A stretch of 64,000 bases of DNA from the NCBI GenBank assembly GCA_041650295.1, contig JBAZLM010000001.1, positions 64,318-128,317 of the forward strand. The letters run 5' to 3'. Positions 19,756 through 63,982 of this stretch are shown here, one piece after another. The position numbers and the translations under genes were made by a program. How positions within the stretch are numbered: the stretch's first letter is position 1; every line of letters begins with the position of its first letter. The notes under the pieces are model-generated. The model did no database searches and was not told the origin of the DNA. It saw nothing but the letters and a program-made list of their open reading frames with translations. Source of the stretch: Candidatus Omnitrophota bacterium. GTDB taxonomy: Bacteria > Omnitrophota > Gorgyraeia > Gygaellales > Profunditerraquicolaceae.

Positions 19756-19896
19756 TTAACAATCTCCTTCTATTTATATATATTTAATAACTTAAAATAA
19801 TAGTAGTCTTAATAGGACCAAAAATCTGTGTACAAGCATAAAAACGGTTGTTATATATATGTTTAGAATAAAAATTAGCGGTTAATAACCTGGGTG
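19756..19896. other. dnaA-dnaN intergenic AT-rich region; candidate oriC DNA-unwinding element half
   Basis: Runs such as ttctatttatatatatttaataacttaaaataatag; DnaA-box-like TGTGTACAA; TTATCCAAG/TTATCAAAC just inside the dnaA 3' end. Confidence 0.4.
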
Positions 19897-21234
19897 TCAT
19901 TGTTTGATAACTTGGATAACTTTTTCAATTCGGGTTTTTAATTCCGGATTACAGTGAATATCCTCTTTTAATTTATTGTATGAATGTAAAACCGTAGTAT
20001 GGTCTTTGCCGCCAAAAAGCTCTCCAATTTCTGGTAGCGATAAATCTGTTAACTCTCTACTTAAATACATAGCGATTTGTCTGGGGAAAACAATTTGTTT
20101 GTTACGCTTCTTAGTTTTTAAATCTTGTAAAGAAATTCCAAATTCTTCTACCACGCAACGTTGAATAAAATCCACAGTAATTAATTTAGTTGGTTCTCTT
20201 AAGAGATCTTTTAAAACTTCTTGGGCTAATGGTAGTGTTACTGGCGCCTCTTCTAATAATGAATAAGCAATGGTGCGAATTAAAGCGCCTTCTAATTCTC
20301 GAATATTAGTTTTAATTAATTGCGCAATAAAAAAAATGACTTCGTCGGGTACAGCAACAGGTTCTCTTTCAATTTTCTTTTTTAAAATAGCCACGCGAGT
20401 TTCTAAATCGGGAGGCTGGATATCTGTAGCCAGGCCCCAACCGAAACGAGAGACTAATCGTTCCTGCAGATTAGTGATTTCTTTTGGTGGTCGGTCAGAG
20501 GAAAAAACAATTTGTTTATGCGCGTCGTATAAAGTGTTAAAAGTATGAAAAAATTCTTCCTGTGTAGATTCTTTACCAGCGATAAAATGAATATCATCAA
20601 TGACTAATACATCTAAGGAACGATATTTTTGTCGAAAGGCTGCTGTGGAACGATGAGCGATGGCATCGATTAATTCATTAGTAAATTTTTCACTGGAGAC
20701 ATAACATATCTTTACTCCAGAGGGTGCATTGTTACGAATTTGATGACAGATCGCCTGGATCAGATGTGTTTTGCCTAAACCAACTCCTCCGTAAATAAAT
20801 AAAGGGTTATAAGTTTTGGCTGGAGAATTAGCTACGGCGATGGAATATGCGTGAGCATGTCGATTGGATGGGCCAATCACAAAATTGTCAAAAGTGTAGC
20901 GGGAATTAAGATTAATGAAACCTGTAGTGATTGTAGGTTTGTTAGTTGCTTCTATTGTTGCAGGGGTTGTTTCTGTTTTTGTGGGGGTAGTGTTAGCTAC
21001 GAGTTTTACTAACAGATTATCCAAGCCCCTAAGCTTTAAAGTTTCTTGAATAAGATGCAGATAATGTTTTTCTACCCAATCTTTAAAAAATTGGTCCGGC
21101 GCCTCTAAGTGAAGATTATGATCATCCGTGGGCAATAGTTTTAGTGGTGCAATCCAAGTAGTAAAGACGGTTTCACCGAGTTTAGTCTTTAAGTCTCCTT
21201 GTGTCTTTTCCCAGTTTTTGGTTAGCTCGAGCAT
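19897..21234 (-). CDS. dnaA: chromosomal replication initiator protein
   Basis: 445 aa; Walker A GGVGLGKTHL, AAA+ box and C-terminal DnaA-box-binding HTH. Confidence 0.95.
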   Translation of the reverse strand: MLELTKNWEKTQGDLKTKLGETVFTTWIAPLKLLPTDDHNLHLEAPDQFFKDWVEKHYLHLIQETLKLRGLDNLLVKLVANTTPTKTETTPATIEATNKPTITTGFINLNSRYTFDNFVIGPSNRHAHAYSIAVANSPAKTYNPLFIYGGVGLGKTHLIQAICHQIRNNAPSGVKICYVSSEKFTNELIDAIAHRSTAAFRQKYRSLDVLVIDDIHFIAGKESTQEEFFHTFNTLYDAHKQIVFSSDRPPKEITNLQERLVSRFGWGLATDIQPPDLETRVAILKKKIEREPVAVPDEVIFFIAQLIKTNIRELEGALIRTIAYSLLEEAPVTLPLAQEVLKDLLREPTKLITVDFIQRCVVEEFGISLQDLKTKKRNKQIVFPRQIAMYLSRELTDLSLPEIGELFGGKDHTTVLHSYNKLKEDIHCNPELKTRIEKVIQVIKQ

Positions 21235-21490
21235 GATTTGTTAAAGTAATATACAGAGTTAACAGCTTATGCACACCTTGCATAAATCTGTGGATAAATA
21301 AATGTGTTAATTTTTTTAAAACATAGCTATTATAACAGAGACCAAAATCCTTGCAAGTAAAAAAGTTAAATGTCAGTTATTATACAACAAACTACTAAAC
21401 CGTCAATAAAAAACTTGACCGATAAATAAATGTGTGTTACAATTCACAAATCTTAGAAGATATTCATTTCAACTTAAAGGAGTTATTGCA
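21235..21490. other. dnaA-rpmH intergenic region with DnaA boxes; candidate oriC part, dnaA promoter region and rpmH promoter
   Basis: Perfect DnaA box TGTGGATAA at 21289-21297; 8/9 box TTATGCACA at 21267-21275. 15-mer GATAAATAAATGTGT repeated at 21293-21307 and 21421-21435. TTGACC-17-TACAAT promoter at 21415-21443; gene orientation flips here. Confidence 0.5.
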
Positions 21491-21628
21491 ATGAAAAAGA
21501 ACCTAAAGACACCCACAAAAATTGTTGGTAAGAAACGCCATGGTTTCCGCAGTAAAATGGCCTCAAAAAATGGTCGTAAATTAATTGCCCGTCGACGTGC
21601 TAAAGGTAGAAAACGTTTAAGCATCTAA
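21491..21628 (+). CDS. rpmH: 50S ribosomal protein L34
   Basis: [45 protein letters not shown]; AAGGAG RBS 9 nt upstream; listed ORF has a spurious N-terminal extension. Confidence 0.85.
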
Positions 21629-21641
21629 TTGAGGTAATACT

Positions 21642-21866
21642 TTGCCTGCGAGATTAAGTCGAGTTGCACTTACATTAATTACTTGTTATCAAAAATATTT
21701 GAGGCCGGCTCTTCCGGTCTGTTGTCGTTTTCAACCGAGCTGTTCGGAATATGCAAAGCAAGCAATTTTAAAATATGGTTTAATAAAAGGAGTATTCAAG
21801 GGTTTCATGAGAATATTGCGGTGTCATCCTTTTTCAGGACGCTGCGGATATGATCCCTTAATATAA
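21642..21866 (+). CDS. yidD: membrane protein insertion efficiency factor
   Basis: 74 aa; CRFQPSCSEYA and HPFSGRCGYDP motifs; follows rpmH with no rnpA in between. Confidence 0.85.
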   Translation: MPARLSRVALTLITCYQKYLRPALPVCCRFQPSCSEYAKQAILKYGLIKGVFKGFMRILRCHPFSGRCGYDPLI

Positions 21867-21870
21867 AATT

Positions 21871-23400
21871 ATGGAAAAACGTTTAGTATTGGCAATCGCA
21901 TTATCACTTTTAGTATTATTGAGTTGGTCAGTGCTTGTACCTAAGCCGCAAGTCGTTGAAAATAAAGGAGTTATAGCATCAGAGGTGAAGCTAGAAACTA
22001 TAGCCCAGAACACTCCCCTGGTTTTACAGCCTACTCCCGTTGCCCCCTCTTCAACAATAGTGATAAAAGAACCAATAAAATTTGTACAAAATAATCGGGA
22101 GATAGTTTTTAACCCAGAGAACGGCACGATTGTAAAAGTAATTTTTAAAGACAATCTTGAGCATCAATTGCCATTGTTTGTGGGCTTTTTAACCAATGAT
22201 AATTTAGCGTTTCATCATACTAATACTACAAAAGATTCGATTACCTTCGTTCACGAAGATCAAAGTCAAAGAGTTGTGAAGAAGTTTTCTTTACCTAACA
22301 ACAGCTACACCATAGGTTTAGAGATAAAAATTCAAAACTTATCTAGTGCTCCTTTGATATTAAATCCAAAATTAATTTTAGGTCGTTTAAACTTAGATGG
22401 CAAAAATCCTCAATCACGCTATCAAGATGTTTTGTTTAGCGGTAAAGAAAAAACGGCACATCTTTCTGCTGGTAAAGATGCTAGCAGCCAAGATATTAAA
22501 TTTATTGGGTTGAGAGATCAATATTTTTGTGTAATTTTAGAGCCGGCTGAACTAGTTACCAATGCTTATGTAAAAAAACTTTCACCTCAGGAGTCTGAGG
22601 TTGGACTTTTTACTCAAGAGATTACTTTAAAATCTAATGCTCAGATTGGACAGTCATATCGTATCTATTTGGGGCCACAAGATTTAAAGATATTAAATAG
22701 CGTAAATCCAGAATGGACATCTATTATTTATTTTGGTATGTTTGATTTTATCGCCCAGTTGATTTTGCAGTTGCTGGGATTTTTTTATAGCTTAGTGCAT
22801 AATTGGGGTTGGGCATTAATTATTTTGAGTGTGGCGGTTTATTTCTTATTGTTCCCGCTCTCGATTAAACAAATGCGCTCGATGAAGGAGATGCAGATTT
22901 TGCAACCAAAGATTGAAGCGCTCCGCAATGAATACAAAAATAATCCACAAAGACTAAATAAAGAGATCATGGATCTTTATAAAGAACACAAGGTTAATCC
23001 ATTGAGTGGTTGTTTACCGTTGATATTACAAATGCCGATATTTTTTGCGCTTTATCAGGCGTTGATTCGTTCGGTAGCTTTACGCGGCGCTCATTTTTGG
23101 TGGATAAAAGATCTTTCTTCGCCCGATCGACTATTTGTTTTTAAAAATTCTATTCCTATTTTGGGTAACCAATTAAATATATTGCCTATTTTAATGGCGA
23201 TTGGTATGTTTGTGCAGCAGAAGATCTCTATGGCCAAGGCAACTGGGGATTCTGCTCAACAACAAAAAATCATGATTGTGGTAATGCCGATTATGTTCGG
23301 AGTAATTTTTTATCAAATGCCATCGGGATTAGTTCTGTATTGGTTTGTGAATAGTATTTTGATGTTAGGGTATCAATATAAAATTAACAAACAAAAATGA
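21871..23400 (+). CDS. yidC: membrane protein insertase YidC
   Basis: 509 aa; N-terminal TM, periplasmic domain and C-terminal 5-TM 60KD_IMP core (NWGWALIILSV...). Confidence 0.9.
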   Translation: MEKRLVLAIALSLLVLLSWSVLVPKPQVVENKGVIASEVKLETIAQNTPLVLQPTPVAPSSTIVIKEPIKFVQNNREIVFNPENGTIVKVIFKDNLEHQLPLFVGFLTNDNLAFHHTNTTKDSITFVHEDQSQRVVKKFSLPNNSYTIGLEIKIQNLSSAPLILNPKLILGRLNLDGKNPQSRYQDVLFSGKEKTAHLSAGKDASSQDIKFIGLRDQYFCVILEPAELVTNAYVKKLSPQESEVGLFTQEITLKSNAQIGQSYRIYLGPQDLKILNSVNPEWTSIIYFGMFDFIAQLILQLLGFFYSLVHNWGWALIILSVAVYFLLFPLSIKQMRSMKEMQILQPKIEALRNEYKNNPQRLNKEIMDLYKEHKVNPLSGCLPLILQMPIFFALYQALIRSVALRGAHFWWIKDLSSPDRLFVFKNSIPILGNQLNILPILMAIGMFVQQKISMAKATGDSAQQQKIMIVVMPIMFGVIFYQMPSGLVLYWFVNSILMLGYQYKINKQK

Positions 23401-38187: not shown

Positions 38188-38372
38188 TAAATGAAACGTT
38201 CTTTTAGATATCCCTGCGGTGCACGTTGGAAAACTGATAATTGTTGAACCAACACAATTTTCAAGGGTACCTATAATTTTTTAGGCACGTGTGTCTAAGA
38301 ATAGGGTGCCCACCTGAAACCAAATCGGTTCAGAATATCGTTCCAACGGCACATTTGCGGGGATTTTTTTTA
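38188..38372 (+). ncRNA. candidate ~185-nt structured ncRNA (6S-like long closing stem ending in a U-tract), or a leader attenuator for the downstream gene
   Basis: CCCUGCGGUGCACGUUGG (38212-38229) is complementary to CCAACGGCACAUUUGCGGGG (38344-38363), which is followed directly by T8 (38364-38371). A consensus promoter lies upstream; no ORF in the interval. Confidence 0.3.
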
Positions 38373-54455: not shown

Positions 54456-54485
54456 TTGAAATTAGCCACAAATATATGTTATAAT
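54456..54485 (+). promoter_or_regulatory. sigma70-type promoter
   Basis: TTGAAA (54456-54461) - 18 nt - TATAAT (54480-54485). Confidence 0.5.
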
Positions 54486-54491
54486 CTATTG

Positions 54492-54581
54492 AAGTTTAAT
54501 TAAGGCAAGGGGTAAACTACCAGCGGGCAGGCAATGCCCAGGACTAAAAGCCAAAAAATTTCCCCTTGCCTATTTTTTTTG
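54492..54581 (+). ncRNA. candidate small structured RNA or terminator-type leader (~90 nt)
   Basis: 10-bp closing stem AGGCAAGGGG (54503-54512) / CCCCTTGCCT (54562-54571) enclosing inner hairpin GGGCA-GGCAA-TGCCC, followed by T8; own promoter upstream. Confidence 0.35.
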
Positions 54582-54626
54582 TGTTACAATACTGATAATT
54601 AAGCTTTGATTAAAAGGGGGAAAGCG

Positions 54627-54827
54627 ATGATGAAAAAGTTTTTTTTATTGTTGGTGCTTTTCGTTTTTGCGTTTTTGACTAGTGGTTGCATTACTATTAA
54701 TACCGACGGATGTTGTTCCAACAAAGCTAATAGTTGTTGTGAAAAAAAAGCAGTTAAAGCTGAGCCTAAAGAGAGCGTGAATCCGATTAAGGTCGCTGAT
54801 GATTGGGTAAAGAAGAATCTCTGGTAA
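54627..54827 (+). CDS. small Cys-rich lipoprotein
   Basis: MMKKFFLLLVLFVFAFLTSGC lipobox (LTSG-C) then CITINTDGCCSNKANSCCEKK; GGGGGA RBS 6 nt upstream; extended -10 TGTTACAAT at 54582-54590. Confidence 0.5.
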   Translation: MMKKFFLLLVLFVFAFLTSGCITINTDGCCSNKANSCCEKKAVKAEPKESVNPIKVADDWVKKNLW

Positions 54828-54862: not shown

Positions 54863-54895
54863 AAGCCGGGTTTATCCCCGGCTTTTTATTTTTAA
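54863..54895 (+). terminator. intrinsic terminator after the lipoprotein gene
   Basis: AAGCCGGG-TTTATC-CCCGGCTT followed by TTTATTTTT. Confidence 0.6.
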
Positions 54896-54956: not shown

Positions 54957-55121
54957 ATAAAGCCAGATCTTACTACTTAAGTATACACGTTTTTAGTATT
55001 GATTTTCAAGGGGGTAGAATTAATAATTTTTGAAAACGTTTTCTTTTTGCCGTATTTTCCTCTTGAATTTGCCTTACCTATATAGCATACTTACTTTACT
55101 ATGAGCCCGGTAGGCATAAAT

Positions 55122-58100
55122 ATGAAAAACTCTAAACTTAGAAAAATTTTATCTTTATTTCTGTGTGGACTGCTATTGCTTCAGCAGACCGGCTTTGCTC
55201 AGGTGGCCAGCGTCGAGCTAAACTTATCTAGTCGGTTTGCTTCCGCAGGCAGTGCTTTATCCAATATACTATCTGTAGATAAGTTCCGTCCAGTTCATCT
55301 AAGATCTATCTCCTACGATCAACTCAACAATAACTTTAAGCTTTTAATTGATAAAGGGGATACTAAGAATCCCAAAACTCAAGAGATCGAATCTACTACC
55401 AAAGACCTGCTCAACTACTTCTTTGTGGGTATTGCTCTACCCAATAGCTCCTTCTGGGTAAACCTTAGACCTGATGCTCCGACTAACATTATTGATCCAC
55501 TACTGGCTCAAACCGAAGTCGGTAAGATTCTCCTAGAAGCCGACCTGCAACTTAAAAAAGACACCGCTGAAGCCACTAACCCGCAATCCCCAGCAGGCAA
55601 AGCCTACTGGAATAAGCTCTATGCTAAAGCCAATGAACTCTACGGTAACCAGAACGTCAACATCCCCACACTAACTAGACCTTGGATAGTTCCTGATGAG
55701 ATCATTATCCGTGAATCTACCAACAATGCCTATGTCTACAAAGCTACTCTAAAGGTCATGTTAGAACAAGATTATCTTAAAGATAACTCTACCTACTCTT
55801 TTAAAGATGACCGCGCTAAACAACTCAATGAATACTCATCTCAGATTATCAGACAAGAGATCATCCCTAAACTCACTAAAGAGATTAACTCCGCTAAACG
55901 TTATGCCCAACTGCGTCAGGTATACTACTCATTAATCCTAGCCCAATGGTTTAAAGCCAGAAACCTCAACAACCCTAATAATCCTTATGCTAAACAAATC
56001 GACCGTAAAGATCTAACCAACCTTAAAACTAATACTCCTTACTCCGTAGACACTTACTTTAACTCTTATAAACAAAACTTTACCCAAGGCCAATACAACA
56101 TCAAAGAACCCGTCTATACACCCTATGGACAGGTGGTCAGGAGTTATTTTAGTGGAGGCGTGGTATTTGGTGAACCAATAACTAAAGCTATACAAAAGGA
56201 TATTGTTCCAGGATATAGATTAGATATGAATCAATCTTATTTAACAAGTGTAGAAGGTGATTTAGTGCATGTGATGGCAGAAGGAGTAAGTAGGCAGAGA
56301 GCTTATTCTAAAACTGATAGCAATAGCTCTCTTAAAGATCTTGAATATACATATGGTGTAAAAATAAATGTTCTTACTACCAGTGAATTTGATCAAAAAG
56401 CCAGTCAATTGGGGATCAGTAATCCCGGTAAGGGATTTGGTTATTTTGATCGCTCAGCTGACCAGCCGTATGTTTATATTCTTAAAGGCAATGAGAATAA
56501 CCGCGATTTAGTTATGCACGAAATTACTGAAGCTTTAGCCAGACAGAGCCAAGGCGTAGCGACTGCTGGAGCAGAAACGGGAGGAATTTCGGGAAATGGA
56601 ATAGATCCAATAGTTAATAAATTGATTGCGCAAGAAGTGGCTAGCAAGCTGGCGGAATTATCTGTAAAAACTGGATTAAATATTTCAGAGAAGATAAAAA
56701 ATAGTAATGAGCTAGTTAAGTGGATGGAAGCTTTACAAGAATATCCTTTATTGGCAGATAAAATTACTGCGCATATTATTGTTACTTTAAGAATGTTACA
56801 TAATAGTAATAATCCTCAAGATGCCATAAATTTTTGGGGAGATTCTAGAGAAATGTGGAAAGTTAGGGAGGCGCTGGTTCCGCTTTTACAGAGCCAAATT
56901 CCAATGTTGTGGAAACAATTATTAGTGAAATTTTTACCGTTGGTAAGCTATGATCAGTTGTTGCGCATACGCGATCTATCTAGAGAATTACAGGATAATA
57001 TGCAACCGCCAACCTATGCATCCGATGATGATATTAATTACATGTCTACTATTGTTAGACCTACAGGCGACTACATTGCCGCTAGAATAAGAGATACAAT
57101 TCATCGCAATCCTAGTAATAAAATAAATTTAATTTTATTACAAGCTTATAAGGTTTATTTAAATGAAGGGCTTGATGCGTATAGGGAATATTTGAAAAAT
57201 AATCCGCAAACGCAAATATTACCTGCTAATAATATTTTGGATGATCGATTAAATTTTGAAAAAAAAGCTAAAGCATTAGAAAAATGCGATGCCTTAATAT
57301 CTCTGGTAGGAGATCTGACTGGTAAGGCCTCTGGAGAAATAATCATGCAAAGCCGTTTTGAGACTTGGAAGAAAGCGGTGTCTGGGCATAGTGATTTTGG
57401 AATAAAAATTTCTAATTTAATTAATGCAAATCCTGATAATCCTACTGATACTTTAGAGTATTTAGGAGAGATTGTCGCAATGAGAAAAGATCTCCAAAGA
57501 ATGTTTATTGATCTTACTGGCGAAGCGTTGTTTGTAAGCTATTTGTTAGACAATGCTTTAGAGACTCTATATTATGTTAATTGCGACAAAATTTTTGAAG
57601 ACAAAAGTGTTAATTCTTTAATATTAATGAGGAGTCTTTTGGAAAATACCAGTTTAAACGGGTATTCTCAGCAAGAAAGTGCAACAATCTTAGAAAAATT
57701 AAAAGAATGGAGCCAGACAACATCTCTAAAAATTAGTAACAAAAAATCTTTAACTGAAAATGATTGGAGTGAGCTTGTTAAAATATATTTAGATGTAAAA
57801 AATAAAATTATTAATGCAAATACAAATTTAATTATTGATAATTTTTATGAGGAAGCTGCAAAATTAATGGGCATTACTAATGCCGAAGATGTTTCCGCAG
57901 ATATTTTAAGAAATGACACCATTTCTTTGTTATCGCGAGCTTTAAGTGAAGCTCTGGTAAAAGCTGGAATTACGCAAGTCATATATGCTGGAGAAGGGGC
58001 AGGCAAAGTAAGGGTTTTTGATAACCTGGACTTTTTAGAGAAAAATCCCCCAACAGATAACGATATTGTTATTCTTAAATTTGATTTAACTGAAGAACAA

Positions 58101-60530
58101 ATTAGTAGAAATATTACTTCAGCTGTTTCAGCGGTGGTTTTTTCTAAAACCGGGCCAATTTCACATTTGGCTCTTTGGGTAAAGGGTAAACGTATCCCTT
58201 CGGCAATTTGTTCCACTGTTTCGCAATTTGAACAATTTCAAGGTCAGAAGGTTAAATTTATAATTAATGATGACCAAGTAGTTTTAGAACCAACTAAAGA
58301 TTTAGTGGAAGGTTCTGTAAAGCCAGCCAAAGAAATTAAAAAAATAGTGTTGCCTAGGGCAAAGAATAAATTAGAGCATATTATTTACGCTGATCAGTTT
58401 GCAGCTGATAATGCGGGGAATAAGGCAGCGGGATTGAAAAAAATTCCGGCGGAATTTTTATTACCGAGCTTTGTAGTAAGTAGTAGTTTTTATGATGCAG
58501 TATTAAATGATCCGCTTAATGCTGATATTGCAGTTGAACTATCAGATTATTTGCAAAAAGCAATTCGTAATCCATTAGCTAATGATATATCGGATACTTT
58601 AGATAAAGCGAGGCGTTTGATTAATCAATTAGTGATTTCAGATGCTAAAGCAGCGGAAATTTTAGGGGCGATTGAAAAAACAATGGGTCAAAATAAGGAT
58701 TTAAGTTTGGTTGTCAGGTCTTCAACTAACGCTGAAGACCTGCCCGGTTATGTGGGAGCTGGACTTTATGGTTCTTTTAAAAATGTGCGCCCGGATCAGG
58801 AATCGTTAGCTGAAAATATTAAAAAAGTTTGGGCTAGTGTCTGGAATGAGCTCCCCTTTAGGGATCGTCAAGTTGAAGGGATTGATCATTTGGCGGTTTA
58901 TCCGGCTGTACTTATCCAGCAGATGTATCCTTCGGATTACCACGCAACGATTTATACTCAGGATCCGGCAAATAAAGGAAAATTAGTTATTCAATTAAAG
59001 CAGGGGCTTGGCGAGCCTGATGAATATAATGATAAGAATATTCAGCAGTTTTCGGGTATGCCGTATCTTTTTATTTATGACGCTGATTCTCATGAATTAA
59101 GTGTAAAAAGCTATGCTGATATTAATTATAAGTTAATTTTAAGAGATGGTGTTATTCAGGAAGTTTTAGCAGACTATAATAATGATCCTATTGGCGATAA
59201 AAATGGAAGAGAGCTTTTAAAACAACTTGCTCAGGTGGCATTAGATATCGCTGCAAAAGCAAAAACTCCTCAAGATATTGAAGGAGGAATTAGGAATGTA
59301 AGTGGGGTTTGGGAATTTAAGCTATTTCAGTCCAGAGATCAAGCTAATGCATCTGATATAGCCAAGACATCTGCACAGGTTGATAGTAATACAATTATTG
59401 CTGGAGAAATTGGTTCGCTTGCTAATGAAATTGCAGGTTTGTTTCGAAAAGAACTTAAAAAAGGATTAAGTGATAGAAATTTTGATGCCATTATTAGTAA
59501 ATATGGCGGGGTGTTCGTAGGTGAAGGTAGATCTGGCAAGGCTTATAAATTTTCTACTACTACCGGAGAGATGGTAATTAAATTTTTTGTTGATGTTGGT
59601 CCCGTTGAATATACCACGTTTGAATCTGAGGTACGGGGTTTATCGCGGGCAGACAACCCATTATTTCAACAGTATGTAACTAGTGCTAGAGCTAATGATG
59701 ATAAAGTAAGCTATATTGTGACAAAATTTGTGAGCGGAATAAGCTTTGATTCTGAGTATAGTTATTCGGAATGGCAGGAATTAAGCCCAGCTGCACAAGA
59801 AAAATATTTTGATAAAATAGAACAAAGAATCCAAAGTATTCCGGATGAGCATTGGGATCAACTGGTTTTAATTTTTAAATATGCAAAAGAAGAGGGAATT
59901 ATTATTGATGCAAAAAAATCCGATAATTTTAAATATACCCCGGAAAGAGGGTTCGTTGTTTTGGATTATGTGTCTTTGATAAATAAAGAGATGTCTGCTA
60001 ATCTTCTTGAAGAAGCAGCTCCTTTGATTGTTGGTGGGGGCTTAATGGCTCAAATAGGAGATGAGAACATTGCTTTGGTTAAGAGCAAGATAGGCGAGGC
60101 GAAAAAACGAATTAGAAATAATTCAGTGGTAATTGTAGATGAAAATGATACAAAAAAAGGTGGTATTGATTTTCGTTTCTTACCGATTGTTACGCAGTCC
60201 ATGGGTAGTTTAAAAGCGAGCATGAGAGGGATACCCGTAAATACTTTGCAACAAATTAATTTAACTAGAGAGTGGAGTGATATTAATCGTTTAGTTAGTT
60301 CTGGGATTGCTCCTTCCACAGAGCGTTTAAAAGAATACTTTGCCGCTAGTTGTTTTAAAGGAAATCTAGATACAGATAATCAAAAGATAATTGCCTGCAT
60401 TTCGGATATTTTAAGAATGGAAGAGCTAACTTGTTCGACTACCGATGCCACCCTTAAAGATATTTTAGTAGTCTTAGGTTCCGGTAGAAGTGGGGAGGAT
60501 TTAAAGTTAGCGCTGAGTGGGGTTAATTAA
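55122..60530 (+). CDS. giant exported multidomain protein: Sec signal peptide, ~950-aa unknown N-terminal region, PEP-utilizer phosphohistidine swivel domain, PPDK_N-type ATP-grasp nucleotide-binding domain, protein-kinase-like domain, C-terminal tail
   Basis: Signal peptide MKNSKLRKILSLFLCGLLLLQQTGFA-QV; the listed ORF starts 7 codons earlier. Swivel domain: GEGAGKVRVF...NDIVILKFDLTEE...SKTGPISHLALWVKGKRIPSAICST, His codon near 58164. PPDK_N: NKAAGLKKIP...LVVRSSTNAEDLPGYVGAGLYGSF...VWASVWNE...AVLIQQMYPSDYHATIYTQDP. Kinase-like: G-loop VGEGRSGKAYKF, MVIKFF lysine, IIIDAKKSDNF catalytic loop, VLDY. Confidence 0.7.
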   Translation: MKNSKLRKILSLFLCGLLLLQQTGFAQVASVELNLSSRFASAGSALSNILSVDKFRPVHLRSISYDQLNNNFKLLIDKGDTKNPKTQEIESTTKDLLNYFFVGIALPNSSFWVNLRPDAPTNIIDPLLAQTEVGKILLEADLQLKKDTAEATNPQSPAGKAYWNKLYAKANELYGNQNVNIPTLTRPWIVPDEIIIRESTNNAYVYKATLKVMLEQDYLKDNSTYSFKDDRAKQLNEYSSQIIRQEIIPKLTKEINSAKRYAQLRQVYYSLILAQWFKARNLNNPNNPYAKQIDRKDLTNLKTNTPYSVDTYFNSYKQNFTQGQYNIKEPVYTPYGQVVRSYFSGGVVFGEPITKAIQKDIVPGYRLDMNQSYLTSVEGDLVHVMAEGVSRQRAYSKTDSNSSLKDLEYTYGVKINVLTTSEFDQKASQLGISNPGKGFGYFDRSADQPYVYILKGNENNRDLVMHEITEALARQSQGVATAGAETGGISGNGIDPIVNKLIAQEVASKLAELSVKTGLNISEKIKNSNELVKWMEALQEYPLLADKITAHIIVTLRMLHNSNNPQDAINFWGDSREMWKVREALVPLLQSQIPMLWKQLLVKFLPLVSYDQLLRIRDLSRELQDNMQPPTYASDDDINYMSTIVRPTGDYIAARIRDTIHRNPSNKINLILLQAYKVYLNEGLDAYREYLKNNPQTQILPANNILDDRLNFEKKAKALEKCDALISLVGDLTGKASGEIIMQSRFETWKKAVSGHSDFGIKISNLINANPDNPTDTLEYLGEIVAMRKDLQRMFIDLTGEALFVSYLLDNALETLYYVNCDKIFEDKSVNSLILMRSLLENTSLNGYSQQESATILEKLKEWSQTTSLKISNKKSLTENDWSELVKIYLDVKNKIINANTNLIIDNFYEEAAKLMGITNAEDVSADILRNDTISLLSRALSEALVKAGITQVIYAGEGAGKVRVFDNLDFLEKNPPTDNDIVILKFDLTEEQISRNITSAVSAVVFSKTGPISHLALWVKGKRIPSAICSTVSQFEQFQGQKVKFIINDDQVVLEPTKDLVEGSVKPAKEIKKIVLPRAKNKLEHIIYADQFAADNAGNKAAGLKKIPAEFLLPSFVVSSSFYDAVLNDPLNADIAVELSDYLQKAIRNPLANDISDTLDKARRLINQLVISDAKAAEILGAIEKTMGQNKDLSLVVRSSTNAEDLPGYVGAGLYGSFKNVRPDQESLAENIKKVWASVWNELPFRDRQVEGIDHLAVYPAVLIQQMYPSDYHATIYTQDPANKGKLVIQLKQGLGEPDEYNDKNIQQFSGMPYLFIYDADSHELSVKSYADINYKLILRDGVIQEVLADYNNDPIGDKNGRELLKQLAQVALDIAAKAKTPQDIEGGIRNVSGVWEFKLFQSRDQANASDIAKTSAQVDSNTIIAGEIGSLANEIAGLFRKELKKGLSDRNFDAIISKYGGVFVGEGRSGKAYKFSTTTGEMVIKFFVDVGPVEYTTFESEVRGLSRADNPLFQQYVTSARANDDKVSYIVTKFVSGISFDSEYSYSEWQELSPAAQEKYFDKIEQRIQSIPDEHWDQLVLIFKYAKEEGIIIDAKKSDNFKYTPERGFVVLDYVSLINKEMSANLLEEAAPLIVGGGLMAQIGDENIALVKSKIGEAKKRIRNNSVVIVDENDTKKGGIDFRFLPIVTQSMGSLKASMRGIPVNTLQQINLTREWSDINRLVSSGIAPSTERLKEYFAASCFKGNLDTDNQKIIACISDILRMEELTCSTTDATLKDILVVLGSGRSGEDLKLALSGVN

Positions 60531-60670
60531 ATTTAGTAACTGCTATCTTGCTTGCCAGTAAAACCAAACATTATTGCGATAAAAGGTGATTTTATTTTTA
60601 TAAATCATTCTTTACAGTCGTGTATAAAGCGGCTATAATTAATTCCGCTTTATATTTATAGGTCAGTTAT

Positions 60671-60766
60671 TGCCCTGTGGTCTAATTTGAGCACCTTGGT
60701 TTTAAATTTGGCGAAATCCTGCGAGCGCAGCGAAGCAGGAGGTAGGACTAAAGCTATTTAAATTAC
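60671..60766 (+). repeat. repeat unit R1: tRNA-Gln 5' 17 nt + ~54-nt hairpin insert (loop GAGCGCAGCGA) + GGTAGGAC
   Basis: TGCCCTGTGGTCTAAT identical to the tRNA-Gln 5' end, then TTGAGCACCTTGG...GGCGAAATCC-CCTGC-GAGCGCAGCGAA-GCAGG-AGGTAGGAC; same insert family as at 6891-6941. Confidence 0.6.
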
Positions 60767-60860
60767 TGCCCTGTGGTCTAATTTGAGCACCTTGGTTTTA
60801 AATTCGGCGAAATCCCGCCGGTTTTTAGGCGGGAGGTAGGACTAAAATTATTTAAGCTAT
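60767..60860 (+). repeat. repeat unit R2: second copy with a sequence-divergent but structurally equivalent hairpin
   Basis: Identical to R1 for the first ~47 nt, hairpin replaced by CCCGCC-GGTTTTTA-GGCGGG, then GGAGGTAGGACTAAA. Confidence 0.6.
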
Positions 60861-60934
60861 TGCCCTGTGGTCTAATGGTAGGACACAAGAATCTGGATCT
60901 TGTTATCATGGTTCGAGTCCATGCGGGGCAACCA
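60861..60934 (+). tRNA. tRNA-Gln (anticodon CTG) with encoded CCA
   Basis: TGCCCTGTGGTCTAATGGTAGGACACAAGAATCTGGATCTTGTTATCATGGTTCGAGTCCATGCGGGGCAACCA; U1-A72 pair typical of bacterial tRNA-Gln; anticodon loop ATCTGGA. Confidence 0.8.
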
Positions 60935-61250: not shown

Positions 61251-62888
61251 TTAAAGGTTAGTTTCTTGGGTAAGAGTTCGCCAGGATTCTATTTGTTTAG
61301 TCCAATCAAATTCTCTGGCTATTAGGTTGGCTTTGTATTCTGGCACTGCATTAAGGATTTCATTAGATCCCATGAGAATCTCTTCTTGGATTTTCGGAGA
61401 GAGGAATAGAAGTTCTACTATAAGATGCAATTGGATGGCAGACATATTGAGCCACTGCGCCACTTGTTTAATATTTGTGGCTTTGCCATTATCTAGTAGC
61501 TCTTGTGCTTGGTAGGCAAGGATTAACCGCTGGCGTAATTTTGGTTCATTTTTAATTTCAATTTTAGGATCATGTGTAGTGATATGCCGGACTTCTTTTA
61601 AATCTGTACTGTATTCCTGAGCTGTACCGTCAGAGAATGTAATAAATATTTTTTTAGCCACTGTATCATAATCAATCTGCTTAATTAAGTTTACTAGGAA
61701 TGATTTTTGTTCTTGAGAGGTGAAGCTTTGCCAATTTTCCTTTAATTTAGCGCCTTCTGGATGATTGAACAAGCATTCTGCTACGGCTTTTTCGATTTCA
61801 AGAGCGTTTATTGTTTTAGTGTTGCAGGTGTGATAACCGTATTTCTGTGCATGGATACAAACATAGTACCTATATTTGGTCTGTTGCGCTTTGTAAGTGT
61901 AAGTTGCAATCATTGGCCTATTACAGGCCTTACAGAAGAGGAGTTTAGTTAGTATATTTATAACTTTTTTCCCGCGAACCAATTCTTGATAATTTCGATT
62001 CTTTTTTAAAAGTTCCTGAACGCGTTTATATGAATCTTCATCAATGATTGCTTCTTGTTCGCCTTCATAAATTGCTCCATTATAAGAAACTTTTCCAATA
62101 TAAAGTGTGCTATGTAGAATATGGTTGATGGTTGTATTCTGGAAGGCATTACCATCGGCTTTCTTGCCATCTTTAGTAGTATAGGATTTGCTTCGCAAGC
62201 CTTTTTCCGTGAGCGCTTGGGCAACATGTTTTAGAGAATAGCCCTTTAGGTATAAGTCATAAATAGTTTTTATGGTTTCAGCTTCTGTTGGGTTTATTGT
62301 TAGTTTTTTTGTTCCTTTGATGCAATTGTAACCTAAAGGTGGCCTTCCACCAAGCCATTTTCCTCTCTTTCTAGCCGCGCCCATTTTATCTTTTGTTCTT
62401 TCGGAGATAATCTCGCGTTCAAATTGAGCAAAAGATAGTAAAATGTTTAATGTTAACCGGCCCATAGAGGAGTTAGTATTGAATGCTTGAGTTACAGATA
62501 CAAAGGTAACGTTATGCTTATCAAAAAGCTCAAGAAGATGAGTGAAGTCGACTAGGGACCGGGAGAGTCGGTCAACTTTATACACTACAACGCAGTTGAT
62601 TTTACCGGTTTTGATATCTTCAATTAGTTTTTTCAGCGCCGGTCGTTCGGTATTTGATCCAGTATATCCCCCATCGTCATAAAGGTCATCTAATGCAACC
62701 CACCCTTCATTCTTTTGGCTTTTTATGTAGTTGATGCCGGATTCTCTTTGTGCATCAAGCGTGGTAAATTCTTGCTCTAAGCCTTCAGTGGTAGACTTTC
62801 GCGTGTAAATAGCGCAGTAGATTGTTTGTTTCTCTTGCCCAGTAGCACTGTCCATAATTTCCTTACATTCTAAAGAATAGATAGCCAT
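61251..62888 (-). CDS. large serine recombinase (resolvase/invertase N-terminal catalytic domain + recombinase and zinc-ribbon domains)
   Basis: 545 aa; catalytic region YTRKSTTEGLEQEFTTLDAQRE (Ser nucleophile), VYKVDRLSRS motif, C-terminal Cys cluster. Confidence 0.85.
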   Translation of the reverse strand: MAIYSLECKEIMDSATGQEKQTIYCAIYTRKSTTEGLEQEFTTLDAQRESGINYIKSQKNEGWVALDDLYDDGGYTGSNTERPALKKLIEDIKTGKINCVVVYKVDRLSRSLVDFTHLLELFDKHNVTFVSVTQAFNTNSSMGRLTLNILLSFAQFEREIISERTKDKMGAARKRGKWLGGRPPLGYNCIKGTKKLTINPTEAETIKTIYDLYLKGYSLKHVAQALTEKGLRSKSYTTKDGKKADGNAFQNTTINHILHSTLYIGKVSYNGAIYEGEQEAIIDEDSYKRVQELLKKNRNYQELVRGKKVINILTKLLFCKACNRPMIATYTYKAQQTKYRYYVCIHAQKYGYHTCNTKTINALEIEKAVAECLFNHPEGAKLKENWQSFTSQEQKSFLVNLIKQIDYDTVAKKIFITFSDGTAQEYSTDLKEVRHITTHDPKIEIKNEPKLRQRLILAYQAQELLDNGKATNIKQVAQWLNMSAIQLHLIVELLFLSPKIQEEILMGSNEILNAVPEYKANLIAREFDWTKQIESWRTLTQETNL

Positions 62889-63330
62889 TCCAATGTTGTC
62901 CTGTTATAGCGCAGGCTACATTAGAAAGGGATTTGTAGATATTGCCATTATATTCAAAGCCATTTTCAAGCACCTTAACTTGAATTTCTTTACCTTTGTA
63001 ATTTTTAGTAATAATGCTACCAGGAATCGGAAGACGACGATCCTTCAACTGTGAAACATTGCTAGTTATTGGTTTAATATTATTCGGCCTAAGCAATAGA
63101 TTATTAATAGGGTCATATTTCTGAATAAGCTCTTTAATTTTGTTTTGAGTTTCAGCGGAAATGCCCCCGGATTCCAATTCCTGAAGCCGATAGGCAAGCT
63201 TACGCCAGAGAAATACCTTATTATTCGAAGGAACTTTCTGGCCCGGGAATAACTCTTCGTATTTTGTCTCAAGCTCACTTAGGGTTTTTTTCTTAAGTTC
63301 TACTATTTGAGATAAATTGGTTTCAGCCAT
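62863..63330 (-). CDS. DUF2924-family protein co-transcribed with the serine recombinase
   Basis: LWRKLAYRLQELESGGIS motif characteristic of DUF2924; 26-nt overlap with the recombinase start; listed ORF extends 10 codons upstream of the probable MAETNLS start. Confidence 0.5.
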   Translation of the reverse strand: MAETNLSQIVELKKKTLSELETKYEELFPGQKVPSNNKVFLWRKLAYRLQELESGGISAETQNKIKELIQKYDPINNLLLRPNNIKPITSNVSQLKDRRLPIPGSIITKNYKGKEIQVKVLENGFEYNGNIYKSLSNVACAITGQHWNGYLFFRM

Positions 63331-63588
63331 AATTGGTCTCCTTTTTTCAGTGGTGAGCAAGGCTGTAAAGGCAGTTGCGTCGAACCACTTTCGTTAGTAC
63401 GTATATGCCATACAGTTCGAGAGATAGCAAGTTATATAATAGATATTATTTTCGATTATTTAACCCCCAAGGCGTATTATCATTAGCAAGTTAGTATATT
63501 TTGCCACACCTGTTTATAGGGAGTGTTTCTATAGCGGGTTCCTTCTGGGCGTTTCTAGAATAATACCTCTTGTTTCGCTAGAATTTCA

Positions 63589-63638
63589 TTGACAACCTTT
63601 TTTTGTATGTTATAATTTACAATATCCGAATATTGTAA
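63589..63638 (+). promoter_or_regulatory. consensus promoter plus palindromic operator upstream of the ArsR-family gene
   Basis: TTGACA (63589-63594) - 16 nt - TATAAT (63611-63616); perfect inverted repeat TTACAATAT-ccga-ATATTGTAA at 63617-63638. Confidence 0.5.
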
Positions 63639-63652
63639 AATAAGGAAATAAA

Positions 63653-63982
63653 ATGCAAGAACTTGCCTATAAAATAAAAGCCGATTTCTTAAAAGCTCTA
63701 TCCCATCCTGTGCGTCTTCAAATAATTGAACTTCTTAAGGATGGCGAAAGAAACGTGGGCAGTATTATGAAAACTTTAAGTATACAACAATCAAGCCTTT
63801 CGCGACATCTTACAGTTTTAAGAGAAGCGGGGATATTAAAGTCAAGACAACAAGGTACGGTTATCTACTATGATATTGAAGATCATATTATCTTTCATGT
63901 ATTGCGTCCTATAGCTGAGATGTTGCGTAAGAAGCTTAAGAAGACTGAATCGGTATTAAGTAGTCTGGGTAAAGAAAAATAA
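63653..63982 (+). CDS. ArsR/SmtB-family transcriptional regulator
   Basis: 109 aa; HPVRLQIIELLKDGERNVGSI winged-helix motif. Confidence 0.8.
   Translation: MQELAYKIKADFLKALSHPVRLQIIELLKDGERNVGSIMKTLSIQQSSLSRHLTVLREAGILKSRQQGTVIYYDIEDHIIFHVLRPIAEMLRKKLKKTESVLSSLGKEK

What the first reader, a model, noticed from the sequence alone, without database searches (positions are those of the whole stretch)
55122..60530. Giant exported protein with a phosphohistidine swivel + ATP-grasp phosphotransfer module and a kinase-like domain
A ~1800-aa ORF with a textbook Sec signal peptide carries a PEP-utilizer mobile His domain (nt ~57960-58300) immediately followed by a PPDK_N-type ATP-grasp nucleotide-binding domain (nt ~58380-59000). 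That pair is the engine of PEP synthase, PPDK and rifampin phosphotransferase, here in swivel-then-grasp order. It is followed by a protein-kinase-like domain with G-loop, VAIK-like Lys, DxKxxxN-like catalytic loop and a DY in place of DFG (nt ~59480-60000). The N-terminal ~950 aa have no recognisable domain. This combination in an exported giant protein is not a described architecture as far as I know. An ATP-dependent phosphotransferase secreted to an ATP-poor compartment suggests delivery into another cell (effector or toxin), or phosphorylation of an extracellular substrate. The gene sits in the accessory block next to a tRNA, repeat elements and an integrated element.
Basis: partly seen in the sequence, partly recalled or inferred. 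Interest (0 to 1): 0.8.

Follow-up and report, generated by a model that had tools for sequence, protein, structure and literature searches.

The report
Capped Omnitrophota protein carrying a dikinase
This 1,802-residue Omnitrophota protein belongs to a large, apparently undescribed family in which the same N-terminal and C-terminal "caps" bracket interchangeable enzymes; here the enzymes are a starch-kinase-like (glucan, water dikinase type) phosphotransferase and a small kinase-like domain.

Summary
The ORF is intact (55122-60530, +) and has a Sec-type N-terminus. It carries a phosphohistidine swivel (His1022), a PPDK_N ATP-grasp (Pfam E 1.5e-23) and a protein-kinase-like domain. The kinase-like call rests on invariant K1494/D1603/N1609/D1622 and on hhalign against PKA (E 3e-5); the fold itself is not proven.

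Two points change the picture.

- **The order is a known one.** Swivel-then-grasp is the order found in glucan, water dikinases. 18 of 19 relatives of the swivel match Pfam GWD1_pHisD (best E 1.5e-26). The helical region upstream weakly matches the GWD1 central domain.
- **The ends are family caps.** Residues 8-357 and 1684-1809 are 50-86% identical in more than 100 Omnitrophota proteins. GTDB species genomes hold 427 such loci, several per genome. The middles of these proteins are almost never related: GGDEF, methyltransferases, radical SAM, and even GAPDH-TIM-PGK-PGM.

The caps have no Pfam, NCBIfam or PDB match. An AlphaFold model of them (pLDDT 81) has no structural neighbour.

Best reading: a capped cargo protein whose cargo is a GWD-type dikinase. 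The Sec signal predicts export. The effector or toxin idea is neither shown nor excluded, and the housekeeping cargo in relatives argues against a toxin.

The parts
55122..60530 (+). Whole CDS, 1802 aa from M8 plus stop. An in-frame ATG at 55101 would give 1809 aa. Residue numbers in this report count from 55101.
55122..55199 (+). Sec-type signal peptide, aa 8-33: n-region KNSKLRK, h-region ILSLFLCGLLLL, c-region QQTGFA, predicted cleavage before Q34. The QQxGFAQ stretch is conserved across the family.
   Evidence: sequence; family alignments
55263..56171 (+). N-cap, aa ~55-357: an alpha/beta domain with invariant motifs FRPxHLR, FWVNLRPD, LQLKKD, IPTLTRPWIVP, KATLKV, RQVYYS and YFSGG. It is 53-86% identical in more than 100 family members. 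No Pfam, NCBIfam or PDB match.
56172..56648 (+). Extension and linker, aa 358-516. Shared with only a few family members (P0009, P0022, P0034, P0045). Function unknown.
56649..57920 (+). All-helical domain, aa ~517-940, which always accompanies the swivel and ATP-grasp in relatives. It contains the IH(R)NPS motif (aa 667-673). Weak match to the potato GWD1 central domain, so it is the putative acceptor-binding domain.
   Evidence: PMC13553574
57975..58280 (+). Phosphohistidine swivel domain of GWD1 type, aa ~959-1060. Catalytic His1022 lies in TGPISH (codon 58164-58166).
58410..59375 (+). PPDK_N ATP-grasp nucleotide-binding domain, aa 1104-1425. Motifs present: GNKAAGL, VVRSSTNAED, QDIEGG, LFQSRD.
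59508..60140 (+). Protein-kinase-like domain, aa ~1470-1680: G-loop GEGRSGKAY, K1494 (59580), catalytic loop D1603...N1609 (59907-59927, one residue longer than in most of the eight aligned homologues), and D1622 of LDY (59964).
60150..60527 (+). C-cap, aa 1684-1809: GGIDFRxLP motif followed by a helical bundle of about 110 aa. It ends within 0-12 residues of the C-terminus in most family members and is 28-97% identical across the family.
54999..55058 (+). Two overlapping sigma-70-like promoter matches (9 of 12 each) upstream of the start. They lie downstream of a terminator-like hairpin at 54863-54884, so the gene is probably transcribed on its own.
   Evidence: consensus matches only

Best explanation
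The gene encodes one member of a multi-copy family found almost only in Omnitrophota MAGs, which I call capped cargo proteins.

**Caps.** A constant N-terminal unit (Sec-type signal peptide plus an alpha/beta domain of about 300 aa with no known fold relative) and a constant C-terminal unit (GGIDFR motif plus a helical bundle of about 110 aa) bracket an exchangeable enzyme cassette.

**Cargo here.** The cassette has two parts:
- a glucan, water dikinase-type core: a helical acceptor-binding domain, then the phospho-His swivel (His1022), then the PPDK_N ATP-grasp;
- a small protein-kinase-like domain placed just before the C-cap.

**Inferred mechanism.** This is taken from PPDK, PEPS, RPH and GWD1. 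ATP binds the ATP-grasp. His1022 takes the beta-phosphate, and the gamma-phosphate goes to water, giving AMP + Pi. The swivel then rotates onto the helical domain and phosphorylates a hydroxyl acceptor bound there. The acceptor is most plausibly a glycan or another polyhydroxy polymer.

**Role of the other parts.** The kinase-like domain keeps the K/D/N/D set and may be a second ATP-dependent phosphotransferase. The caps decide where the enzyme works. The signal peptide predicts Sec export. The caps would then serve anchoring, assembly or onward delivery that is common to all family members.

**Shown:** the domain map, conservation of the catalytic residues, and the cap-plus-variable-cargo architecture.
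**Inferred:** the dikinase chemistry, the nature of the acceptor, export, and the function of the caps.
For: **Caps.**
- BLASTP of the query against 120 hits shows aa 8-357 and 1687-1808 shared by nearly all, and the middle by only 5-6.
- Among 6,670 pairs the N-cap identity is always at least 53%. Only 38 pairs have middles homologous over at least half their length, including only 5 of the 116 pairs with N-cap identity of 80% or more. N-cap and C-cap identities correlate at r = 0.56.
- The N-cap lies at the very N-terminus, and the C-cap ends within about 12 residues of the C-terminus in most hits.
- GTDB species genomes hold 427 loci, almost all Omnitrophota, with up to 3 per genome among the best 80. 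Tandem genes occur.
- A paralogue from what is very probably the same MAG (P0002, MFA5092585.1) has an N-cap 86% identical to this one.
- Family members range from 606 to 3671 aa.
- The caps have no Pfam, NCBIfam, PADLOC or PDB sequence match.

**Cargo.**
- PPDK_N at E 1.5e-23.
- The swivel profile hits PEPS and PPDK swivels with the catalytic His aligned. 18 of 19 relatives hit PF22973 GWD1_pHisD, best E 1.5e-26.
- The helical-domain profile has the GWD1 central domain as its top PDB hits, 9qvi and 9ha9, E 0.012.
- About 25 representative clusters share the whole unit aa ~517-1420.
- The GWD1 domain order and its pivoting His mechanism are described in PMC13553574.

**Kinase-like domain.**
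Against: - The GWD1 central-domain link is weak. hmmsearch gives E 0.012, and hhalign aligns only 37 columns (E 4e-4, probability 35%).
- No carbohydrate-binding module is detected, so the acceptor is unknown.
- The window's own swivel scores below the Pfam cut-off.
- The kinase-like catalytic loop has one extra residue between D1603 and N1609 relative to most of the eight aligned homologues, and its fold is not confirmed.
- Export is inferred from sequence inspection only. ATP-, NAD-, SAM- and Fe-S-dependent cargo across the family is hard to reconcile with a periplasmic or extracellular site.
- The contact between N-cap and C-cap is suggested only by the pTM of an artificial chimera.
Confidence: 0.62

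Rival explanations
1. Secreted effector or toxin. The caps form a delivery platform that carries interchangeable enzymes into a host or prey cell, in the manner of MARTX toxins or polymorphic toxins. There the dikinase and the kinase use host ATP to modify host molecules.
For: - Sec-type signal conserved across the family.
- Constant ends with hypervariable enzymatic middles and several paralogues per genome.
- Nucleotide-dependent cargo that would be idle in an ATP-poor compartment.
- Omnitrophota are proposed to be predators or parasites that make very large surface or secreted proteins (PMC10066038; 10.1101/2023.11.21.568195).
Against: - Cargo in relatives includes lower glycolysis (GAPDH, TIM, PGK, iPGM), glutamate dehydrogenase, NDK and radical SAM/B12 enzymes. 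These are housekeeping types, not toxins.
- No conserved neighbouring immunity, chaperone or secretion gene. The most frequent neighbours, which I identified by eye as rsmI, glmS, gyrA/B and ccdA, occur in at most 16 of 79 loci.
- No autoprocessing protease, RTX repeats or other known translocation domain.
- The gene's upstream flank is core genome, about 34 kb from oriC.
Confidence: 0.2
2. Cell-retained enzyme scaffold. The N-terminal hydrophobic segment is an uncleaved anchor or a targeting tag, and the caps tether many cytoplasmic-type enzymes to the membrane, to an internal structure or to each other. The dikinase then acts on an intracellular polymer such as a glycogen-like glucan.
For: - Cargo is overwhelmingly cytoplasmic in type and cofactor-dependent.
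- Giant Omnitrophota proteins are described as multi-enzyme metabolic clusters rich in starch-synthase and sugar-metabolism domains (10.64898/2026.06.07.730766), which gives a GWD-type enzyme a plausible intracellular substrate.
- Family genes are scattered among housekeeping genes.
Against: - The n-region carries +4 charge and the h-region has only 12 residues, followed by G-F-A. That fits a cleavable Sec signal with the bulk translocated, not a cytoplasm-facing anchor.
- No other hydrophobic segment exists in the protein. No 19-residue window anywhere reaches a mean Kyte-Doolittle value of 1.6.
Confidence: 0.15
3. An ordinary PEP synthase, PPDK or rifampin-phosphotransferase homologue, as the database name 'PEP/pyruvate-binding domain-containing protein' suggests.
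For: Best NCBIfam and PDB sequence hits are PEP synthases and RPH, but only over the ATP-grasp.
Against: - Scores of 74 bits or less fall far below the family cut-offs of 500-1700 bits.
- There is no PEP-utilizers_C TIM barrel.
- The domain order is inverted relative to PEPS, PPDK and RPH.
- The swivel is of the GWD1 type.
Confidence: 0.02
4. An assembly or frameshift artefact that fuses separate genes.
For: None found.
Against: - The reading frame is continuous.
- Two database entries carry the same sequence, on contigs of different length.
- Family caps at both extremes bracket the ORF exactly as in more than 100 relatives.
Confidence: 0.01

Closest known systems
Alpha-glucan, water dikinase GWD1 and phosphoglucan, water dikinase (plants and algae; StGWD1, PDB 9HA9/9QVI, Pfam PF22973 + PF01326)
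   Same: The order is the same: all-helical central domain, then phospho-His domain, then C-terminal PPDK_N ATP-binding domain. The swivel family matches the GWD1_pHisD model, and the helical region's best PDB hits are the GWD1 central domain. The expected chemistry is therefore ATP + acceptor + H2O giving AMP + phospho-acceptor + Pi through a pivoting phospho-His (PMC13553574).
   Different: There are no CBM45 or CBM20 starch-binding modules. The host is bacterial (Omnitrophota). The core is embedded between a signal peptide with N-cap and a C-cap, and is fused to a kinase-like domain. Similarity of the central domain is only borderline. The substrate is unknown.
PEP synthase, pyruvate phosphate dikinase and rifampin phosphotransferase
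   Same: They share the ATP-grasp (PPDK_N) plus swivelling phospho-His engine, and the ATP-grasp motifs and the TSH-like His motif are conserved.
   Different: In those enzymes the ATP-grasp comes first and the swivel follows. PEPS and PPDK add a PEP/pyruvate TIM barrel, which is absent here. RPH has a rifampin-binding insert, which is also absent.
MARTX toxins and polymorphic toxin systems
   Same: The logic is similar: constant terminal regions with swappable enzymatic modules, in multiple variants.
   Different: There are no RTX repeats, no cysteine-protease processing domain and no adjacent immunity genes. Cargo includes housekeeping metabolic enzymes. Both caps are globular domains with no similarity to known trafficking domains.
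Giant multi-enzyme proteins of Omnitrophota (West-Roberts et al. 2023 preprint; 2026 preprint 10.64898/2026.06.07.730766)
   Same: Same phylum. Both string many unrelated cytoplasmic-type enzyme domains in one polypeptide that often starts with a signal peptide. The domain repertoires are similar (methyltransferase, GNAT, HAD, radical SAM, sugar metabolism).
   Different: Those papers treat proteins of 10,000 aa or more and describe C39 or S8 peptidase, dockerin and SecA-like features. I found no mention of the 350-aa N-cap or 125-aa C-cap in term searches of three Omnitrophota papers or in the one section read in full. The present family is 0.6-3.7 kaa.
Protein-kinase-like superfamily (eukaryotic-like Ser/Thr kinases, APH, WaaP)
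   Same: G-loop, beta3 Lys, a D-x4/5-N catalytic loop and a DFG-position Asp are aligned in register with PKA.
   Different: No Pfam kinase model is matched. The domain is short, about 200 aa from G-loop to end. DFG is replaced by LDY. The window copy has one extra residue in the catalytic loop. The fold is unconfirmed.

Membership tests
GWD/PWD-type dikinase | C-terminal PPDK_N nucleotide-binding (ATP-grasp) domain | tested here: met
   PF01326 at aa 1104-1425, E 1.5e-23.
GWD/PWD-type dikinase | GWD1-type phospho-His domain directly upstream of the ATP-grasp, with a conserved catalytic His | tested here: met
   The window copy scores PF22973 E 2e-4, below cut-off. 18 of 19 relatives hit PF22973, best E 1.5e-26. 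S1021-H1022 is invariant. The His aligns with the catalytic His of PEPS and PPDK.
GWD/PWD-type dikinase | All-alpha central domain upstream of the His domain | tested here: inconclusive
   The profile's best PDB hits are the GWD1 central domain, 9qvi and 9ha9, at E 0.012 over about 320 columns. hhalign supports only 37 columns around the HNxPSP motif (E 4e-4, probability 35%). No structure model of this region was made.
GWD/PWD-type dikinase | N-terminal starch-binding modules (CBM45 or CBM20) | tested here: not met
   No CBM family appears in the Pfam scans at E up to 10.
GWD/PWD-type dikinase | Dikinase reaction (ATP to AMP + Pi + phospho-glucan) | not testable with these tools
   Needs enzymology.
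PEP synthase / PPDK | Order ATP-grasp, swivel, PEP/pyruvate TIM barrel (PF02896) | tested here: not met
   No PF02896 hit and the order is inverted. NCBIfam scores are 74 bits or less against cut-offs of about 600-980.
Rifampin phosphotransferase | ATP-grasp with inserted rifampin-binding domain and a C-terminal swivel | tested here: not met
   NF041857 scores 56.9 bits against a cut-off of 999, over the ATP-grasp only. The swivel precedes the ATP-grasp.
Protein-kinase-like superfamily | G-loop, beta3 Lys, catalytic Asp/Asn loop and Mg-binding Asp in canonical order | tested here: met
   K1494, D1603, N1609 and D1622 are invariant in 9 homologues. hhalign against PKA gives E 3.3e-5 with all motifs in register.
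Protein-kinase-like superfamily | Significant match to a curated kinase model, or a bilobal kinase fold | tested here: inconclusive
Sec-exported protein | Tripartite cleavable signal peptide | tested here: inconclusive
   The n, h and c regions and a G-x-A cleavage motif are visible and conserved in the family. No predictor and no experiment were available.
Polymorphic toxin / MARTX-like effector carrier | Known trafficking or repeat domains, a processing protease, toxin-type cargo and an adjacent immunity gene | tested here: not met
   No such Pfam domains. Cargo in relatives includes glycolytic enzymes. No conserved neighbour gene.
Anti-phage defence systems (PADLOC) | Match to any PADLOC model | tested here: not met
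   0 families at E up to 0.1.
Omnitrophota capped cargo family (defined here) | N-cap at the extreme N-terminus and C-cap at the extreme C-terminus of one ORF | tested here: met
   aa 8-357 and 1684-1809 align at 50-86% identity with more than 100 proteins carrying both caps.

The most novel reading that the evidence does not exclude
The N-cap and C-cap together form a previously unrecognised protein-targeting or display system found almost only in Omnitrophota. Under this reading, one constant two-part scaffold of novel fold, with a dedicated conserved signal sequence, routes dozens of otherwise cytoplasmic enzymes to a common extracytoplasmic destination. The cargo would include a GWD-type dikinase, kinases, radical SAM enzymes and a four-enzyme glycolytic block. 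The destination could be an energised periplasm or surface coat, or a host cell. That would imply that these nanobacteria run ATP-dependent metabolism outside their cytoplasmic membrane or inside their hosts.
Probability: 0.3. Interest if true: 0.88.

Novelty: new variant of a known kind. Interest (0 to 1): 0.66.

Why it matters
**For the cargo.** It extends the glucan, water dikinase architecture, known from plant and algal starch metabolism, to an uncultured bacterial phylum. It comes in a new fusion with a kinase-like domain and without starch-binding modules. This gives a testable handle on what polymer these cells phosphorylate.

**For the caps.** Hundreds of loci share two constant terminal modules around unrelated enzymes. 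This pattern does not appear in Pfam or NCBIfam, among solved structures, or in the Omnitrophota literature I could search. If the conserved Sec-type signal is functional, Omnitrophota export large numbers of ATP-, NAD- and SAM-dependent enzymes. That bears directly on the open question of how these ultra-small, possibly predatory cells interact with hosts and why they invest in very large multi-enzyme proteins. If it is not functional, the caps are a new intracellular scaffolding principle.

Either outcome can be reached with a few experiments.

Tried and rejected
- **Two wasted homology searches.** A second search with the middle region (aa 400-1680) returned only the protein itself and one weak hit. 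A third, with the kinase-like alignment A1, returned nothing. The word pre-filter failed in both. As a result the kinase-like domain could only be modelled with a 4-sequence alignment, and the model came out poor.
- I used the window chimera as the first row with full-length family members instead.
- **Apparent cargo-less loci.** Loci that seemed to hold N-cap and C-cap contiguously were checked. The shortest real member found is 606 aa, in L027.
- **Conserved partner genes.** Clustering the ORFs of 79 loci gave only housekeeping genes (my reading of the sequences), each in at most 16 loci.
- **Contig look-ups.** The look-up of encoding contigs found no record for P0001, P0002 or the window ORF, so I could not inspect the rest of the source genome.
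- **Unavailable library.** The AlphaFold-database fold libraries were not available. Fold comparison was limited to the PDB.
- **Paralogues in the window.** None found.
- **PADLOC.** No match.
- **hhalign against APH(3')-IIIa.** Not significant.
- **Penton protein hit.** The cap profile hit an entry named 'Penton protein' at E 0.0056 over 70 residues. I regard this as chance.
Full report

The window holds one uninterrupted ORF, 55101-60530 on the + strand, of 1809 codons. A 1809-aa version is held by JGI/IMG and ENA on a contig of different length. A frameshift or fusion artefact is therefore excluded.

The N-terminus reads M-KNSKLRK-ILSLFLCGLLLL-QQTGFA|QV. This has the three parts of a Sec signal peptide and is the only hydrophobic segment noted. 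No 19-residue window anywhere in the protein reaches a mean Kyte-Doolittle value of 1.6. No signal-peptide predictor was available.

**2. The three catalytic-type domains**

*ATP-grasp.* Pfam PPDK_N matches aa 1104-1425 at E 1.5e-23. PEP synthase and RPH structures and NCBIfam models align over this part only, far below their family cut-offs.

*Swivel.*
- The window sequence alone is sub-threshold: PF22973 GWD1_pHisD E 2e-4, PF00391 E 0.1.
- An alignment with 18 relatives found by an exhaustive HMMER search has an invariant Ser-His, His1022 here.
- As a profile it hits the swivel domains of PEP synthase (8a8e, E 1e-8) and PPDK (2fm4, E 7e-5), with the catalytic His aligned.
- 18 of the 19 members match PF22973, best E 1.5e-26. 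Ten match PF00391.

*Kinase-like domain (aa ~1470-1680).*
- No Pfam model matches.
- Eight homologues from other proteins share it. K1494, D1603, N1609 and D1622 are invariant.
- A profile-profile comparison with PKA gives E 3.3e-5 over 131 columns. It places the G-loop, beta3 Lys, hinge, catalytic loop and DFG position in register.
- The profile against the PDB returns 59 weak hits (E 0.1-2), and all but one are named as kinases.
- The AlphaFold model, built from only four sequences, is poor (pLDDT 56). Its strand and helix order resembles a kinase.

I rate a protein-kinase-like fold as likely but not proven. The window copy has one extra residue between D1603 and N1609.

**3.

Homologues that share the swivel and ATP-grasp nearly always also share the helical region of about 420 aa upstream. 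The unit is aa ~517-1420, found in about 25 representative clusters, and one protein carries it twice. A profile of that helical region has the crystal structures of the potato GWD1 central domain (9qvi, 9ha9) as its best PDB hits. These score E 0.012 over about 320 columns and include the family's most conserved motif, IHNxPSPxDL against GWD1 LHNNTSPDDV. hhalign supports only that motif region (E 4e-4, probability 35%).

The GWD1 paper describes exactly this order: central all-helical domain, His domain, then ATP-binding domain. The His domain pivots between the ATP site and the central domain, where the acceptor is thought to bind (PMC13553574). So swivel-then-grasp is a described architecture. 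What is missing here are the CBM45 starch-binding modules. What is added is the kinase-like domain.

**4.

The first homology search returned 849 proteins. In the best 120, the match covers only about 19-27% of the query at 38-86% identity.
- BLASTP shows that aa 8-357 and aa 1687-1808 are shared by essentially all of them. Only 5-6 share any of the middle.
- The N-cap lies at the very N-terminus, and the C-cap ends within about 12 residues of the C-terminus in most hits.
- The middles carry unrelated Pfam domains: GGDEF, several methyltransferases, metallophosphoesterase+FHA, GNAT, UbiB+M48, radical SAM+B12, glutamate dehydrogenase, NDK+CheR, HEAT/TPR, HD and NUDIX.
- One relative (L036, 3108 aa) carries GAPDH, TIM, PGK and iPGM between the caps.
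- Over 6,670 pairs the N-cap identity never falls below 53%. Only 38 pairs have middles homologous over at least half their length, and only 5 of the 116 pairs with N-caps at least 80% identical do. N-cap and C-cap identities correlate at r = 0.56.
- A scan of one genome per GTDB species found 427 loci encoding the N-cap. Nearly all are in Omnitrophota MAGs, with up to three per genome among the best 80. Tandem copies occur. Complete members range from 606 to 3671 aa.
- P0002 (MFA5092585.1) is very probably from the same MAG, judging by the accession series. Its N-cap is 86% identical, its kinase-like domain 46% and its C-cap 68%, with otherwise different content.

**5. What are the caps?**

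Neither cap matches any Pfam, NCBIfam or PADLOC model or any PDB sequence. I modelled the window's N-cap (aa 8-372) joined to its C-cap (aa 1680-1809), using an alignment of 59 full-length family members.
- The model has mean pLDDT 81 and pTM 0.77.
- The N-cap is an alpha/beta domain and the C-cap a helical bundle with pLDDT above 90.
- Residues 27-49 of the model and the artificial junction are disordered.

As far as these tools can see, the N-cap is a new fold. The pTM hints that the caps pack together, but I could not inspect the coordinates.

The signal-peptide region is itself unusually conserved (FQQxGFAQ). No gene is consistently found next to family members.

Term searches of three Omnitrophota papers (a 2023 preprint on giant genes, a 2026 preprint on complete genomes, and Seymour et al. 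2023), and one section of the 2026 preprint read in full, turned up no mention of these caps.

**6. Genomic setting**

Upstream are dxs, three subunits of a 2-oxoacid:ferredoxin oxidoreductase, gltX and a small lipoprotein-like ORF. dnaN, dnaA and yidC, together with the GC-skew switch, place oriC about 34 kb upstream. Downstream are two tRNA-Gln-like repeat units, tRNA-Gln, and a serine recombinase, DUF2924 and ArsR, which is a probable integrated element.

The gene has a terminator-like hairpin and promoter-like sites upstream and is probably monocistronic. It sits at the edge of the core genome, not inside an accessory block.

**7. Most likely mechanism**

Shown:
- the domain map;
- intact catalytic motifs of the ATP-grasp (GNKAAGL, VRSS, DIEGG, LFQSRD), the swivel His, and the kinase K/D/N/D set;
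- the architecture of constant caps with variable cargo.

Inferred from PPDK, PEPS, RPH and GWD1 biochemistry:
- ATP binds the ATP-grasp.
- His1022 receives the beta-phosphate.
- The swivel pivots to the helical domain and phosphorylates a hydroxyl acceptor, perhaps a glycan.
- The kinase-like domain may add a second phosphotransfer.

Inferred from sequence only: Sec export, with the caps providing a common anchoring, assembly or delivery function.

The cofactor-dependent, housekeeping nature of family cargo conflicts with an extracytoplasmic site. That conflict is the main unresolved point. It is also why the effector reading (about 0.2) and a cell-retained scaffold reading (about 0.15) remain alive beside the neutral capped-cargo dikinase statement (about 0.6).

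**8. Verdict**

The cargo is a new variant of a known enzyme type, a GWD-like dikinase fused to a kinase-like domain. The caps define a large family, found almost only in Omnitrophota MAGs, that I could not find described. That family is the more interesting result, and it deserves follow-up on localisation and on whether the capped enzymes are the cell's only copies.

Noticed in passing
window 60667-60856: Two tandem units of about 95 nt lie directly upstream of the real tRNA-Gln (60861-60934). Each starts with the first ~19 nt of the tRNA-Gln gene (TTGCCCTGTGGTCTAAT), followed by an insert of about 55 nt and then GGTAGGAC, which is the continuation of the tRNA D-loop. ARAGORN and Rfam do not call them. 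They could be remnants of integration events or disrupted tRNA copies.
   Followed up: partly
window 61251-63982: A large serine recombinase (61251-62888, -), a DUF2924 protein (62863-63360, -) and an ArsR-type regulator (63653-63982, +) lie just after tRNA-Gln. This is probably the edge of an integrated element.
   Followed up: partly
window 18661-23400: dnaN and dnaA lie on the - strand, and yidC and parA on the + strand. Gene orientation and the sign of the GC skew both switch at about 20-21.9 kb, so the window spans the chromosomal replication origin.
   Followed up: partly
window 38208-38367: A 6S RNA gene (Rfam RF00013, 68.5 bits) lies between pheT and the next operon.
   Followed up: no
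window 54456-54585: A strong promoter-like site (11 of 12, with an extended TG) is followed by a 10-bp GC-rich stem enclosing about 50 nt and then a U-run, between gltX and a small ORF. It could be a short transcript or only the gltX terminator. The fold z-score is just -1.55 and there is no Rfam match.
   Followed up: partly
window 54627-54827: A small 66-aa ORF has a lipoprotein-like signal (LTSGC) and a Cys-rich stretch (CCSNKANSCCEKK). It has no Pfam match and is followed by a clean terminator-like hairpin at 54863-54884.
   Followed up: no
L036 1037-16303: Two family genes lie in tandem, 22 nt apart. The first (3108 aa) carries GAPDH, TIM, PGK and iPGM domains between the caps, which is four lower-glycolysis enzymes in one capped polypeptide.
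   Followed up: yes
family proteins P0002-P0120: The motif [AS][AS]SP[VIL] occurs 86 times in 120 family proteins, against 3.45 expected from shuffles. It often lies just after the N-cap or just before the C-cap, so it may be a junction or processing signature of the cassettes. The window protein has none.
   Followed up: partly
P0023 (2496 aa): One family member carries two copies of the whole dikinase unit (helical domain, swivel, ATP-grasp) in tandem between the caps.
   Followed up: no
L025 1503-5274: The gyrA neighbour of one family locus appears to contain an intein-like insertion (CVTGD...SHN). This was judged by eye from the translation only.
   Followed up: no
L001, L011/L075 and several 'uncultured Planctomycetales' loci: A few N-cap loci come from MAGs labelled Thermodesulfovibrionia, Margulisiibacteriota or Planctomycetales. 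The contigs are short or the labels generic, so mis-binning or mislabelling seems more likely than true occurrence outside Omnitrophota. This was not checked.
   Followed up: no
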